A stretch of 64,000 nt of DNA from Isurus oxyrinchus. Taxonomy: Eukaryota. Below, piece by piece: positions 33,801 to 39,800 of this stretch. The translations under genes and the position numbers were made by a program. The stretch lies in the NCBI GenBank assembly GCA_026770705.1, contig JANJGN010000027.1, positions 22,196,001-22,260,000 on the forward strand, in the 5' to 3' direction. The notes below the pieces were generated by a model. The model was not told the DNA's origin. It saw only the letters and a program-made list of their open reading frames with translations, and made no database searches. Numbering within the stretch: the stretch's first letter is position 1; each line of letters begins with the position of its first letter.

Positions 33801-36800
33801 AAAGAACCAACACAGGGACAAAGGGCTGGATAGCCCATTCTGCTGTAATTCCTTTAATTTTATGAGTCTGTGCCTTCAGGACAGAGGTTGGGGGGGAGGA
33901 AATTCTTTGACTCATATCCTGCCACTTAAATTCCCTTGAAAGAATTAGGTTTGTAAAGATCCATGCGGCTATAAAATATATTGTGCCCATTGAGACAGGA
34001 AGAGAAAAGGCTGACATTGGGCATTTATGTGCACTCACATGTTGAAAGGTGTTTCATAGTCAGGCCAGGAGGAATGATTGGTGAGCTACCTGCAATGGGA
34101 GAGATTGCCAGTTTAAAAGAGAAGCCTGAAATAAGTTGATTGCATTGCAACTCACCAAACGAGCTAGATCTTGGAATCTCGCTGCGAAGCTAAGGGACAT
34201 TACAAAGTATGTTTTTTCTTCTTTATTCTTTCATGGGATATGGGCATCGCTGGCAAGGCCAGCATTTGTTGCCCGTCCCCAATTGCCTTTGAACTGAGTG
34301 GCTTGCGTGGCCATTTTGAAGACCTGTTAAGAGTCAGCCACATTGCTGTGGGCCTGGAGTTGCATGTAGGCCAGACTGGGTAAGGATGGCAGATTCCCTT
34401 CCCTAAAGGGACATGAGTGGACCAGATGGGCTTCTAACACCCGTTGATAGTTTCATGCTCGCCATTATTGAGACCGACTTTCAATTCTATATTTATTCAT
34501 TGAATTTAAATTCCGCCAGTGATGGGATTTGAACCCAAGTCCCCAAAGCGTTAGCCTGGGCCCTCTGGGTTACTCATCCAGTGACATTCCCACTATGCCA
34601 CCATTCTTCGTCTTTGTTAGCGGTCCTGCGCAGAAACTAGATGCTTTTCTGTCTCATTTTCCAGTACCTTGTAGTAAAGTTACTTTCTCTTCCTGCAAGC
34701 AGGTGCTGGGAAATCCAATGGCCAATGCCAATAACCCCATGACTCCAGGAGGCAACCCAATGGGCTCTGGGATGTCAGCAAACAATCCTGGGATAAACTC
34801 GCCTCAGTTTGCCAGTCAGCAACAGCAGTTCTCAGCCGGCAAGGGTGGCTCCAACCAGGCGTACATGCAGCAAGGCATGTACGGGCGGCCTAACTACCCT
34901 GGAAGTGGCAACTTTGGTAGCAGGTAAAACCCACGTGCTGTTGGTGTCTCAACATGAGGGAGGCTACTTCCAGGATTCTGGAGGAGGGCGTGCGATACAA
35001 TACTGAGCTGGCAAAGCACCAAAGCAGAAGCAAGTGGTCATTATTCCAGACTTGAACAATGGGAGCGTGTGGAGGTGGCTGAAGAGCATTCAGTCGATGA
35101 CATGGAGAGGATTTGTGCTTATATTTCCAAACATCCCAACTTGTATAATTTTCACACATCCCAATGCTCCTGTTTAATTTTTTTTTTTATCTTTTGGCCT
35201 CCTGTTTTCATTTGGAATGTTGGTTTAAAAACTCCCACTTTCACTTTTTTGTCCATCTAACTGGATGACCTTCTGCAGCCAAGCGACCAACAAGTGGCTA
35301 TTTCCCAGACTGCAGTGTGCGTGCCGGAGGCTTCCCGAGTCCAACCTGTCTCGTCTCTTTCACCCCTACATAAAAAAACGTCAAAATCTTCACCCTCTGC
35401 TTCCACACATGTAGAAAGAAATCGTTCCTTCCCTGCCCCTCTCACCAGGCAACCCACCATTCTGTAGCCAAGGAGGCAACTCATACGTTACTGGGCACTG
35501 GAAAGCGCACAGTCTAGTCTGATTCTTAACTCCCTCCTTCCAAAGACGAGCTGACCTCTGCTCACCACCTCCTCACATGTAGAAAATCTCGAGCACTAAC
35601 CTCTGCCCTTTGACTTTGTGTATAGCACAGTGCATCCCCGACACGTTTTAATACTGTTTTATTGCTCATGCAGTTTAGTATTGTGGTTTATGCCAGACCC
35701 CTTTTAAAACTGCAGAGAGAAGTGTAACTATAAATGTGTCCCGTGGCTTCAATTCTGCTTTTGTTTTAAATATATATGTATTGTTGAGAGGAATGATGTC
35801 TAACTGGATGCTGTTTCTTTTCCACTCTCTTCCAGTTACCCTGGTGGTCCCAATGCCCCTGGCTCCATGGGCATTCCTCCACACAGCAGGCCGCCAACAG
35901 ATTTTACCCAGCCAGCTGCCGCAGCGGCAGCAGCAGCAGTTGCAGCTGCTGCAGCAACAGCAACAGCGACCGCAACCGCCACAGTGGCTGCCCTGCAAGA
36001 GAAACAGAACCAGGAGATGAACCAGTATGGCCCGGTAAGGCTCCATCTTCGTTGTAAGAAGCCAACTCTTGTTTACTCCTCATAGATCCATTCGTTGAGT
36101 GTCTAATGGTCATGGTATTGTGGTGTGTTACTATGGCGATGCATTGGTGCTTTCAAAGAACAAACTTGCACTTCTTTAGCGCCTTTCACGGCTGCAGGAC
36201 ACCTCGAGTGCTTTAGTCGAGACTATTGAATCGTAGTCACTTCAGGGGAAATGTCTTTGCCCAGAGAGAGGTTAGAAGGTGGAACTCGCTACATAAGGCA
36301 AATAGCCGGGATGCATTCAAGGAGAGGCTAGATAGGTGCATGAGGGAGACAGGAATAGAAGAATAGGTTTTATTTATTCATTCATGGGATGTGTGCATTT
36401 ACCATGCACCCTAATTGCTCTTGAGAAGGTGATGATGATTCATAAAAACAAAAAAACTGTGGATACTGGAAATCCAAAACAAAAACAGAATTACCCGGAA
36501 AAACTCAGCAGGTCTGGCAGCATCGGTGGAGAAGAAAAGAGTTGACGTTTCGAGTCCTCATGACCCTTCGACAGAACTAGATCTAGGCTGACACTTCCAG
36601 TGCAGTGCAGATGGAGCATGGCACTATTGGAGGTGCCACCTCTCAGATGAGATCCATCAATATCACAAAATATTCAATATTCAGCCTAGTTCTGTTGAAG
36701 GGTCATGAGGACTCGAAACGTCAACTCTTTTCTTCTCCGCCGATGCTGCCAGACCTGCTGAGTTTTTCCAGGTAATTCTGTTTTTGTTTTGATGATGATT

Positions 36801-39800
36801 CATGTTGAATACCGATGAGTAGCTTGCCAGACCATTTCATATTGCTGTGGGCCTGGAGTCACATATAGGCCAGGCCATACTGAGACTAGCCTTTTATTCC
36901 TGATTTATTGAATTCCTCATCTGTTGTGGTGGGATTTGAACTCATGACTCCAGATCATTAATCCAGGCCTTTGCATTAATAGTCCAGTACCATAATCACT
37001 ATGCTACCATCCCCTTACATATTGTTGATGAGGTTAGATAAAGAGGGGTTGAGGATTAGGCCTGTATGTGACACAAATGCCAGCATTGCCCTATTGGGTC
37101 AAATGTCATATTCCTGTACGTGGATCTTTGGCAAGACTGTTTCAATGTTGGAAAGGTGGCAGCCAAATTGCACACTGCAACGAGATAAATTACTAGATAT
37201 TGAATATTTTGTGATATTGATGGATCTCATCTGAGAGGTGGCACCTCCAACAGTGCCGTGCTCCATCTGCACTGCACTGGAAGTGTCAGCCTAGATTATG
37301 TTCTCCAGCCCTTGGGGTGAGATCTGAACCACGTTCTCCTGACTCTGAGGCAACAGTGCCTTCTACTGAGCCACAGCAGGCACAGGTGAGATAGCAGCTT
37401 ACACATTGGGTCTACCTGTTTCATACAATGCTAATTAGGAAGACATGGGTGTCATTAAAAGAGAATACGTTAACCCAAGTGCCCCGTTTCAAAGGCAATA
37501 AGCCCCACAGTATTAGTAAAAGCGAAGGAAAATGATCAAATTAAAACATAATGTTGTTCCTGGTGCTGGTTCTACACCCCAGCTCCTCTGGCGCCCTCGC
37601 TTGTGGAAGGCCTCAGAGGGGCAGATACCACATGCTCCCTCTCCAGGGACAAACTGTTCACCAAGCTGAGCTGTGACTCAGATTTGTACCACAGTCACTG
37701 CAACCACAACGCAGGATACAAGCCCTCACGGCACCACGCATTGGCTTCAAGGCACGTTAGCTCTCACCCCAGTATTTCCTGTTTCTTTCTCAAGGCTCTT
37801 TCTTCTCTTTTGCAGATGGGCCCAGCACAGGCTTACAACAATCAGTTCATGAGCCAGCAGGGAGGACGGGGCCCATCATCCATGCAGGGCAACATGAACC
37901 CAGGAGGGATGGGAGGTGGGATGACTCCGTCCAGCATGAGTGGGCCACCCATGCCCATCAACCAGCCCAGACCACCAGGGATGAATCAGGTGTTTGCATC
38001 CCACAGCCAGAGAGTGGCACAGCAGGGGTACCCAGGCCCAAGACCATCTCAGCCGATGCCCATGCAGGGGGTGAAAAGGCCTTATCCCGGCGAGGTGAGT
38101 AAAACTAAACTACGGGTCTGAAGAGTTAACAGGCATTTGCTTATGTCTACTATCCCAGAAAGCCGTGTAGTGAAGGACAGACAGGAACCTAATCCTTACA
38201 TGCCTTATAAAGGTTAATTTAGAGACATGTGTTATAAACATACATCTCCAAACCCAGCAACAAGAATTTTAAGTCTGTTCCTATTTATAGGAGTACAAGT
38301 GAATCCCCAGTTAATGCTCACCACCTGAATACAATTTAAAACTTATTAGTAGACAATTAACATTGCGCATCAGAGTATTTTTAAACATTGCTAACAGATT
38401 CATTCAAATTGAATGTGTTTGTATTTATTAATGCTTAACAACACACCCCATTTACTGTGACCTTTTCAATCACTGAACTGGCCCATAAATTTGCCTTTGA
38501 GTATATTTTTTAAATAATCCTGTTTTTCATCTTCCCCCCAGCACCCCCCACCCCCGCACCCCCCCGCGCCCCCCCCCCCCCTCCACAACTTCCACCCTTC
38601 CCTGTTAGAAGTTATTGATATCTTGCCTGCCCATCACCCCATGCTCTGTGAGTTTGTCAGCAGTCTGCTCTCTCTTGTATGGAAATGTGTGTCCTGCTTA
38701 GATATCACCGACTCCACTAAGTTCAGGAGCTCTCAAACAACCCTGCCAACTTGCACAAGGCAGCCAGCATTGGAACGCCGCTGTGTTTGCCTTCTTGTGC
38801 AGCAGCCATTGTTAAGTTTCTTCAGTCTACCTTCAGGTAGCCAGTTGTCCGTCAACACTGACTTTGTATTCACGAGAGGCCCCAAATACTATAAGGAGAT
38901 CTGTATTTTGCAGCCGAGCTATGGGGCACAGCAGTATGGACCAAGCAGCCAGTTTGCCAATCAGCCTGGCCAATATCCAACAGGGAACCCCCAAAGGCCC
39001 ATCACATCGCCCAGTTACCCTGGCCAGAGGATGCCTGGCCAACAGAACACAGGCCAATACCCACCGCCTCCGGTCAACATGGCTCAGTATTACAAGGTAA
39101 ATGCATATCTTGCTAATTTGTATTTGCTATGTCTTGGTGTTTGACCTGAGGTGTCTCTTTCTTACCCAGTGGAGTTGAATTGACTGCTGACCACCATTCT
39201 TTTCTTTTTCCACATCCTACCCCTTTCCTTAACTGCAACAGGCAGAGCAGTTTAATGGACAGAACAACAGTTTTGCTGGGAGTGGCTATACCTACAGTCA
39301 AAGTAGTCTGAATGGGGTAAGTTCTTGAGGGAGAAAAGCTTCTCCCCCCAACTCTTGTTGCACACCTTCTGAAGTCCAGCAACATGCTAACACTCTAGTA
39401 GTTGCATTTCCTTTCACCTCTTTCACATCAGGAGAGTGTTTTTCACTGCTTATTTTCTGTAGAGCTTTGTTGCGAAGCAGTCCGAGTGATTGAGGAGCGA
39501 GGATAACACAGTAAATGGTGCAACTGCAGACAGAACATATTATACTGGTTCTTTAGCAGTCACTGGCAGCCAAGGGCTAGCATGCCTTTGCAAATACTTT
39601 GCTCGGGCAACACCAGACAAGACAAACTCCCCAGCTTAACATCCATTGTCAGCCAGAGGCTGTAATTGGCCTCAGGATTGCACACACCTACCCCCCCCCC
39701 CGTCGTTGCAGTTGATTGGTTCTTCCTGCAAGTGTCACTGGTAGAGGCAGCAGGTGAAAACTAGATTGGGATACCACCCCCCACCTCCCTCAGTCACAAA

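What the first reader, a model, noticed from the sequence alone, without database searches (positions are those of the whole stretch)
36431..37296. Inverted hammerhead-repeat cassette that captured 100 bp of nearby DNA in one insertion
Seen in sequence, in order: TSD gatgatgattcat; Penelope-like repeat (minus, 36444-36580); 100 bp that is the reverse complement of 37197-37296 (2 mismatches); a 9-nt forward snippet tcagcctag also found at 37286-37294; the same repeat in plus orientation (36686-36790); TSD. The captured piece spans a unique/SINE junction, so it came from this locus. CTAG occurs at both repeat inner ends and at both ends of the donor. Established: Penelope-like elements carry hammerheads in their terminal repeats and often form inverted structures. 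Inference: two opposing reverse-transcription events were bridged by CTAG-microhomology template switching onto neighbouring DNA or pre-mRNA. That would be a local gene-fragment capture mechanism producing a MITE-like unit with 105-bp inverted arms.
Basis: partly seen in the sequence, partly recalled or inferred. Interest (0 to 1): 0.8.

Follow-up and report, generated by a model that had tools for sequence, protein, structure and literature searches.

The report
Penelope insertion holding copied neighbouring DNA
A small jumping-gene insertion in an intron, probably of a shark, carries between its two mirror-image halves a 100-base copy of DNA from about 400 bases away; the structure is real, but both the mirror-image layout and this kind of local copying have been described before.

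Summary
Order: a 13-14-nt target-site duplication; a 137-nt hammerhead repeat (minus); a 100-nt inverted copy of 37197-37296 (98% identical); TCAGC; a 106-nt copy of the repeat (plus); the duplication. The arms show a known Penelope-like (PLE) layout: head-to-head pseudo-LTRs with a 31-nt tail on one arm only. Two other copies in the window end at these same two 3' positions. The hammerhead fits the PLE minimal motif except that core A6 is U. No autonomous PLE was found, so PLE membership is inferred.

Most likely both nicked strands primed reverse transcription, and both cDNA ends then switched by microhomology onto the sense strand of the same intron. Whether the template was DNA or pre-mRNA, and whether the element's RT or a host polymerase copied it, is unresolved. 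A second local inverted duplication without hammerhead arms (16699-16966) shows that local copying happens here without this element. It is not a MITE. Precedents: capture between PLE pLTRs in a rotifer; local DNA and pre-mRNA co-insertion by L1. A real, well-resolved single event of a known kind.

The parts
36430..36443 (+). Left target-site duplication (13-14 nt; host SINE sequence)
   Evidence: Exact repeat of 36790-36803; paralogous SINE copy 60096-60160 has the homologous stretch once
36444..36474 (-). 31-nt 3' 'tail' present on the left arm only
   Evidence: Missing from the right arm; present in solo copy 54080-54226
36475..36580 (-). Left arm: pseudo-LTR-like repeat with minimal hammerhead motif (core starts at 36574 on minus)
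36577..36586 (.). Left inner junction, 10-nt palindrome CTAGATCTAG
36581..36680 (-). Captured 100 nt, inverted copy of 37197-37296 (2 transitions)
36681..36689 (+). Right inner junction: TCAGC + CTAG, equal to 37286-37294 forward and to the reverse complement of 36583-36591; overlaps a 7-nt tandem repeat 36670-36683
36686..36791 (+). Right arm: same repeat without the tail; minimal hammerhead core at 36692
36790..36803 (+). Right target-site duplication
37197..37296 (+). Donor: about 28 nt of non-repeat intron plus about 72 nt of an old SINE; CTAG at 37193-37196 and 37291-37294
36035..37815 (+). Host intron (GT...AG) of a zf-MIZ gene (ZMIZ1-like; gene name recalled) holding both insertion and donor
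   Evidence: zf-MIZ Pfam hit on exon 53771-53872, E 1e-9
54080..54226 (+). Solo young copy of the same repeat, with tail and a 7-nt TSD (54074-54080 / 54227-54233); used as comparison
7902..7974 (+). Older 5'-truncated copy ending at the same base as the tail-less right arm; used as comparison

Best explanation
One Penelope-like retrotransposition event, finished by microhomology template switching onto the neighbouring intron. Step 1 (inferred from the TSD): a PLE endonuclease made staggered nicks 12-14 nt apart. Step 2 (inferred): each 3'-OH primed reverse transcription of the same short hammerhead-bearing pLTR RNA, one from the tail-proximal and one from the tail-distal start site. This gave head-to-head arms of 137 and 106 nt. 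Step 3 (shown as sequence, inferred as process): both cDNAs stopped at the same 5' boundary, at hammerhead helix I. Step 4 (inferred): both ends annealed side by side on the sense strand 0.5 kb downstream, the right one by CTAG at 37291-37294 and the left one by AGAAC at 37300-37304. The right end copied 5 nt, the left end 100 nt. Step 5 (inferred): the ends were joined, bluntly or through a 3-nt TCA/TGA match after a 7-nt slip. The copying enzyme (PLE RT or a host repair polymerase) and the template (pre-mRNA, R-loop-displaced strand or sister DNA) are not determined. The product is an inert intronic insertion that folds into a 106-bp RNA hairpin.
For: TSD is host-SINE sequence present once in a paralogue. 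The 31-nt tail on one inverted arm plus TSD is the structure described for rotifer Pen2a: 31-bp tail, inverted pLTR, 9-bp TSD (PMC3846280, passages). A lizard PLE protein cleaves and extends both strands and starts RT at two sites that delimit the tail (PMC11167929, parts 1-2 of 4). Independent copies end at both positions: 7974 at the tail-less end, ungapped register from CAGGTA; 54226 within 6 nt of the tailed end. All three young 5' ends fall within 2 nt. The outer junctions have about 2-nt microhomology. Left-end AGAAC run: 0.6% of random positions give such a run, a post-hoc test. Read along each cDNA's own direction, all 105 added nt can be copied from the sense strand, the strand that 5' resection of the right-hand end would remove (inference). 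Divergence of arms (3/106) and of capture from donor (2/100) is indistinguishable, Fisher p=1.
Against: No autonomous RT + GIY-YIG element is linked to the repeat. None of 45 stop-to-stop ORFs of 120 aa or more looked like one by eye; only 5 stretches were run against Pfam, giving one unrelated RVT_1 fragment at 6981-7589. The right cDNA end also has a 5-nt ACTAG match to the antisense strand at 37192-37196, which fits DNA snap-back in the other direction. The 3'-end coincidence rests on 2 comparison copies. Divergence cannot separate capture during integration from capture soon after. A PLE-free local inverted insertion exists in the same window.
Confidence: 0.6

Rival explanations
1. Two steps. 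The PLE first made a spacer-less head-to-head palindrome centred on CTAG, because two copies that each begin AGTTC fuse to GAACT|AGTTC. The palindrome later broke at its centre, leaving 3' CTAG ends, and host repair (MMBIR or Pol theta type) inserted DNA templated from the nearest CTAG-bounded stretch.
For: CT is not shared with the third young copy, and CTAG appears on both sides of the spacer. Palindromes at PLE inverted junctions are common (PMC3846280, passages). Non-spaced inverted repeats are break-prone and a 52-bp spacer relieved fork stalling (PMC3300023, passages). Multi-template insertions with 2-12-nt microhomology accumulate as germline variants (PMC8421209, passages). A PLE-free example lies at 16699-16966.
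Against: Neither arm lost a base at the centre. The family's natural bases 5' of AGTTC are unknown: the third copy has GAG, overlapping its TSD, and an old diverged copy has CAG. Ages of arms and capture do not differ, although that test has little power.
Confidence: 0.2
2. One reverse-transcription event plus fold-back. The left cDNA switched to the donor, then snapped back on itself at TCA/TGA and copied TCAGC and its own arm, skipping 6 nt between the two CTAGs, before joining the target through TG.
For: The inverted repeat extends 5 nt into the captured DNA on both sides, 36583-36591 vs 36681-36689. Both arms share T at a site where the third copy has C. Fold-back inversions of 52-220 bp accompany some L1 insertions (PMC10191854, passages).
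Against: The right arm stops at the same base as an independent older copy, which a fold-back would hit only by chance. The arms are no closer to each other (3 differences in 98) than to the solo copy (2 and 3). It needs an extra 6-nt slip.
Confidence: 0.13
3. The spacer was already part of the source element or of a chimeric RNA made elsewhere (fixed spacer or transduction), and the match to 37197-37296 reflects a shared repeat.
For: About 72 of the 100 nt belong to a multi-copy SINE. The rest of the genome could not be searched.
Against: 98% identity to the local copy against about 79% for the best other copy of that SINE in the window. The match runs across the SINE boundary into 28 nt not matched elsewhere in the window. 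The solo copy has no spacer.
Confidence: 0.04
4. Assembly or chimeric-read artefact.
For: Inverted repeats are hard to assemble (PMC8557442, passages). No reads were available.
Against: A clean TSD with a paralogous empty site. All 4 variable sites among the three young copies and both capture/donor differences are transitions, with no indels; the 4 fall in CpG columns (14 of 98 columns; nominal P 3e-4, inflated because a column counts if any copy has CG).
Confidence: 0.03

Closest known systems
EN+ Penelope-like elements with inverted pLTR and tail (Adineta vaga Pen2a/Pen3a; PMC3846280, passages and section 9 read)
   Same: Head-to-head pLTRs, 31-nt tail on one arm, whole unit inside one TSD, palindrome at the inverted junction. 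[quoted passage not shown]
   Different: No ORF here. The captured piece has an identified donor 393 nt from the insertion in the same intron; the passages read give no local donor. The TSD is 12-14 nt against 8-10.
Poseidon PLE of Anolis (PAc; PMC11167929, parts 1-2 of 4 read)
   Same: Two RT start sites bounding a tail; both strands cut and extended; hammerhead about 90-130 nt upstream of the 3' ends; hammerhead cleavage not needed for insertion.
   Different: Shown in vitro with the purified ORF protein; the parts read do not describe template switching to host sequence. No partner protein is known for this shark repeat.
Minimal hammerheads of metazoan PLEs (PMC4209133, parts 1-2 of 4 read)
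   Same: Extra nucleotide after A9, G10.1-C11.1 pair, palindromic 15.2-16.2, helix I of 4-6 bp. That paper reports dual motifs 100-700 bp apart on opposite strands in Schistosoma.
   Different: Core position 6 is U, not A, in all three young copies. Activity was not tested.
L1 insertions with locally templated DNA, local pre-mRNA or fold-back (PMC10191854; bioRxiv 10.1101/2024.08.27.596794; PMC11702581; passages read)
   Same: Priming from both nicks, a TSD kept, and a co-inserted piece under 250 nt copied from near the site; one L1 case co-inserted local pre-mRNA.
   Different: A different retroelement class; no poly(A); both arms cover the same segment of the element. The donor is about 400 nt away, against typically within 15 bp for the 22 L1 templated insertions.
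MMBIR / Pol theta-type templated insertions (PMC8421209, passages read)
   Same: Several templates, 2-5-nt microhomology or microhomeology, inverted copy of nearby DNA.
   Different: Here the insertion is enclosed by retroelement arms and a TSD; the donor lies beyond the 100-bp search range of that study.
MITEs (definition recalled)
   Same: Short non-coding unit with long inverted arms and a TSD.
   Different: Arms unequal, so the termini are not inverted repeats; one copy in the window; arms are retroelement-derived.

Membership tests
EN+ Penelope-like element (non-autonomous piece) | ORF with telomerase-like RT and GIY-YIG endonuclease, in the element or in a linked autonomous partner | tested here: inconclusive
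   No ORF in the 360-nt unit. No partner seen among 45 ORFs of 120 aa or more (by eye, with 5 stretches run on Pfam). The genome was not available; two protein searches gave no RT.
EN+ Penelope-like element (non-autonomous piece) | pLTRs in inverted arrangement within one TSD | tested here: met
EN+ Penelope-like element (non-autonomous piece) | Optional 30-40-nt tail; two preferred 3' ends | tested here: met
   31 nt; 2 copies end at each position (4 copies with a readable 3' end, of 5 found)
EN+ Penelope-like element (non-autonomous piece) | No poly(A) tail | tested here: met
   3' ends of four copies printed
PLE minimal hammerhead | Extra nt after A9, G10.1-C11.1, palindromic 15.2-16.2, helices I and II | tested here: met
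   3 of 3 young copies; 0 hits in 100 resampled windows
PLE minimal hammerhead | Intact core CUGANGA ... GAAA | tested here: not met
   CUGUYGA in all three; strict scan 0 hits; no Rfam hit
PLE minimal hammerhead | Self-cleavage as a dimer | not testable with these tools
   Needs an in vitro assay
Non-LTR retrozyme | Head-to-tail tandem units each carrying a type I hammerhead | tested here: not met
   Copies are solo or head-to-head; Tandem Repeats Finder lists no array at these sites. Definition from bioRxiv 10.64898/2026.07.22.740005, part 1.
MITE | Terminal inverted repeats at both ends | tested here: not met
   The left end carries a 31-nt tail outside the inverted arm
MITE | Multi-copy family of the whole unit, mobilised by a DNA transposase | tested here: inconclusive
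   One copy in 64 kb; genome not searchable
Locally templated insertion (MMBIR/TMEJ or RT template switch) | Insert matches nearby DNA and junctions carry microhomology | tested here: met
Locally templated insertion (MMBIR/TMEJ or RT template switch) | Identity of polymerase and of template (RNA or DNA) | not testable with these tools
   The donor holds no splice junction that could mark an RNA template

The most novel reading that the evidence does not exclude
In this shark PLE family, twin cDNAs made from both nicks routinely run off a fixed 5' end at hammerhead helix I. The dimeric RT then jumps with both ends onto the host's nascent pre-mRNA (or the R-loop-displaced strand), so that inverted pairs commonly enclose antisense-copied, unspliced pieces of the gene they land in. 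That would be a recurrent, transcription-coupled local capture step in PLE integration and would bear on how PLEs pick up intron-containing host sequence.
Probability: 0.15. Interest if true: 0.65.

Novelty: new variant of a known kind. Interest (0 to 1): 0.32.

Why it matters
How Penelope-like elements finish integration, and how they take up unspliced host sequence, is still open; the in vitro study read here leaves the later steps unvalidated. This event keeps donor, TSD, tail and junction microhomologies readable, so it suggests a simple genome-wide test: are spacers of inverted pairs local, and are they copied from the sense strand of transcribed genes? As a single intronic event made mostly of old SINE sequence it has no evident function. 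The insertion adds a 106-bp RNA hairpin (-236 kcal/mol, z -23) and a second 100-bp inverted pair to the pre-mRNA; any effect on splicing or editing is untested.

Tried and rejected
Rfam scan of the whole window: 0 matches at gathering threshold; not informative for minimal hammerheads. Exact 22-nt pattern scan of bacterial/archaeal genomes, looking for host-contaminant copies: 1 match, whose flanks (241 nt read) do not resemble the repeat, so chance. Protein searches with an antisense translation of the arms, as a proxy for other copies and for spacer-less palindromic fusions: 0 of 297 candidates at near length and 1 of 8000 scored at longer length, a horn-shark calpain model holding a related repeat twice, which stops short of the 5' boundary. 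So the family's natural 5' bases stayed unknown. 'All arm differences are CpG decay, so one arm copied the other': rejected, because the arms are no closer to each other than to the solo copy. The three-copy comparison was misregistered by one base and was redone; only one search is used for it. The 37818-37988 stretch sent to Pfam, and two exon stretches, were in the wrong frame and say nothing. MITE and retrozyme labels rejected (membership table). PMC12016303 held none of six search terms. Literature: searches listed no paper whose title or abstract start describes local-donor capture between inverted PLE repeats or this shark repeat. The library lacks most subscription papers and Repbase/Dfam; supplements were not read (those of bioRxiv are closed), and they may list this family.
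Full report
Observation. A 14-nt exact direct repeat flanks the unit; inverted arms of 106 nt (36475-36580, 36686-36791) differ at 3 positions; 36581-36680 is the reverse complement of 37197-37296 with 2 mismatches. TCAGCCTAG occurs forward only at 36681 and 37286. 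CTAG lies within 2 nt of both ends of a random 100-mer of this window with frequency 1.4e-4. The unit sits in a SINE inside an intron (36035-37815) of a zf-MIZ gene (Pfam PF02891, E 1e-9, on a later exon). The name ZMIZ1-like is recalled, not looked up.

The TSD is a true target duplication. A paralogous SINE at 60096-60160 has the homologous stretch once and continues into TTGAA as the right flank does. Six paralogues were aligned; three were printed across the site and this one matches best. The donor is local: the best other copy of its SINE in the window is about 79% identical over 63 nt, and 37197-37224 matched none of the five copies aligned. An assembly artefact is unlikely. The 4 variable sites among the three young repeat copies and the 2 capture/donor differences are all transitions, without indels. 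The 4 lie in CpG columns (14 of 98; nominal P 3e-4, inflated by the way columns were defined).

What the arms are. nhmmer with the solo copy listed 8 rows at E up to 5; five are credible copies: both arms, 54080-54226, 7902-7974 and a weak one at 724-793. The left arm carries 31 nt that the right arm lacks. The solo copy has this tail and a 7-nt TSD (0.7% of random anchored pairs), while the older copy at 7902-7974 ends on the same base as the right arm. A 30-40-nt optional tail, inverted 5'-truncated copies and a TSD are standard for PLEs (PMC8557442, passages). In Adineta, Pen2a has a 31-bp tail on one inverted pLTR and a 9-bp TSD, and unrelated sequences were found captured between solo pLTRs inside TSDs (PMC3846280, passages and section 9). 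The Anolis PLE protein cuts and extends both strands and starts RT at two sites that bound the tail (PMC11167929, parts 1-2 of 4). The hammerhead matches the PLE minimal motif in the extra base after A9, the G10.1-C11.1 pair, the palindromic 15.2-16.2 and the short helix I (PMC4209133, parts 1-2 of 4). Position 6 is U in all three young copies: the strict scan found none, the relaxed scan exactly these three, and 100 resampled windows none. Rfam found nothing. No RT or GIY-YIG partner was found. The repeat therefore works like a PLE pLTR; membership is probable but lacks the defining ORF link, and the ribozyme core test is not met.

The inner junctions. All three young copies begin within 2 nt of AGTTCTG, at helix I. 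The CT in front of it in both arms is not shared with the solo copy. Left junction: arm end, then the donor copied from 37296, forming the palindrome CTAGATCTAG. In that register the arm's AGAAC pairs with 37300-37304, followed by two mismatches and a terminal G-T wobble (0.6% of random positions, post hoc). Right junction: donor end, TCAGC, CTAG, arm, overlapping a tandem ATATTCA. The right cDNA end can pair by 4 nt with the sense strand at 37291-37294, or by 5 nt with the antisense strand at 37192-37196.

Mechanism. The most economical reading (0.6) is priming from both nicks at the two PLE start sites, run-off at the same 5' boundary, and switching of both cDNA ends onto adjacent sites of one sense-strand template. 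The left end copied 100 nt and overran the site where the right end had copied 5 nt, so 37286-37294 appears twice. This resembles the short internal duplications of L1 twin priming (bioRxiv 10.1101/2024.08.27.596794, passages). A sense template is what pre-mRNA or an R-loop would offer and what resection of the right-hand end would remove; this is inference, and the antisense 5-nt match allows DNA snap-back instead. Rival two (0.2): a CTAG-centred palindrome formed first, broke at its centre and was repaired by templated insertion (PMC3300023 and PMC8421209, passages). Rival three (0.13): one RT event plus fold-back; against it, the right arm ends at a natural 3' end and the arms are no closer to each other (3 of 98) than to the solo copy (2 and 3 of 98). 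Arm divergence (3/106) and capture divergence (2/100) do not differ (p=1), so timing cannot separate these models.

Result against a PLE-specific capture mechanism. A self-comparison of the window gave 272 non-self alignments, 10 of them at least 90% identical over 45 nt or more. Six are a TG microsatellite, three involve the focal unit, and one is new: 16699-16966 is an inverted copy of 15889-16155 (267 of 268 columns), inserted in a SINE 543 nt from its donor. It has CA and CCA microhomologies and no hammerhead arms. Local inverted copying therefore occurs in this genome without the element, assuming that this near-identical pair is not itself an assembly error.

Comparison and verdict. Each ingredient is in print: inverted tailed pLTRs and capture between pLTRs for PLEs; dual opposite-strand minimal hammerheads 100-700 bp apart; local pre-mRNA co-insertion and 52-220-bp fold-backs for L1 (PMC10191854, passages); templated genomic insertions at L1 sites. 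What I did not find (searches, in a library missing most subscription papers and repeat databases) is a PLE case with an identified local donor and base-level junctions. Other papers opened: PMC6155905 (passages), bioRxiv 10.64898/2026.07.22.740005 (part 1 of 5 and passages), PMC12016303 (term search, no hits); searches were seen as listings. No supplements were read. The captured DNA is non-coding and mostly old SINE, the unit is not a MITE, and it is one event. Verdict: real; a new variant of a known kind; interest 0.32. If a genome-wide survey showed frequent sense-strand local spacers, it would merit about 0.65 (probability about 0.15).

Noticed in passing
window 16699-16966 and 15889-16155: Second local inverted duplication, 267 of 268 columns identical (one homopolymer indel), inserted into a SINE with CA/CCA microhomology, no hammerhead arms, 543 nt from its donor. 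Two such events about 0.5 kb from their donors in 64 kb is a high density; needs read support.
   Followed up: partly
window 54080-54226 (+): Solo young copy of the hammerhead repeat with tail and 7-nt TSD, in sense orientation shortly after the zf-MIZ exon of the host gene; same A6-to-U core change.
   Followed up: yes
window 724-793 (-) and the 5' ends of the young copies: A very old copy has TTTCCCAG just before the position of helix I, resembling a 3' splice site. In D. virilis Penelope an intron ends at the 5' end of helix I (PMC4209133). The shared 5' boundary of the young copies may be splice-related; the alignment is weak (E 0.027).
   Followed up: partly
window 22102-28897: 6.8-kb array of a degenerate 28-bp minisatellite with strong AT skew.
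   Followed up: no
window 26343-26789 and 28922-29368 (-): Two near-identical 148-aa frames in or at the edge of the minisatellite, with a CECG...H..C zinc-knuckle-like end suggesting a non-LTR retrotransposon C-terminus (label recalled; no Pfam hit for the first).
   Followed up: partly
window 6981-7589 (-): Decayed reverse-transcriptase fragment, Pfam RVT_1 E 1.5e-6, just under the curated cut-off.
   Followed up: partly
window 36475-36791: In the host pre-mRNA the sense-orientation hammerhead of the right arm is predicted to be sequestered in the 106-bp hairpin with the left arm, which would block self-cleavage even if the core were active.
   Followed up: partly
P0003 (Heterodontus francisci calpain-1-like model): The annotated protein holds a duplicated stretch that includes an antisense translation of a related repeat, probably a gene-model error.
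   Followed up: no
window 51197-51337: 34-nt imperfect inverted repeat (82%) with 73 nt between the arms; not examined.
   Followed up: no
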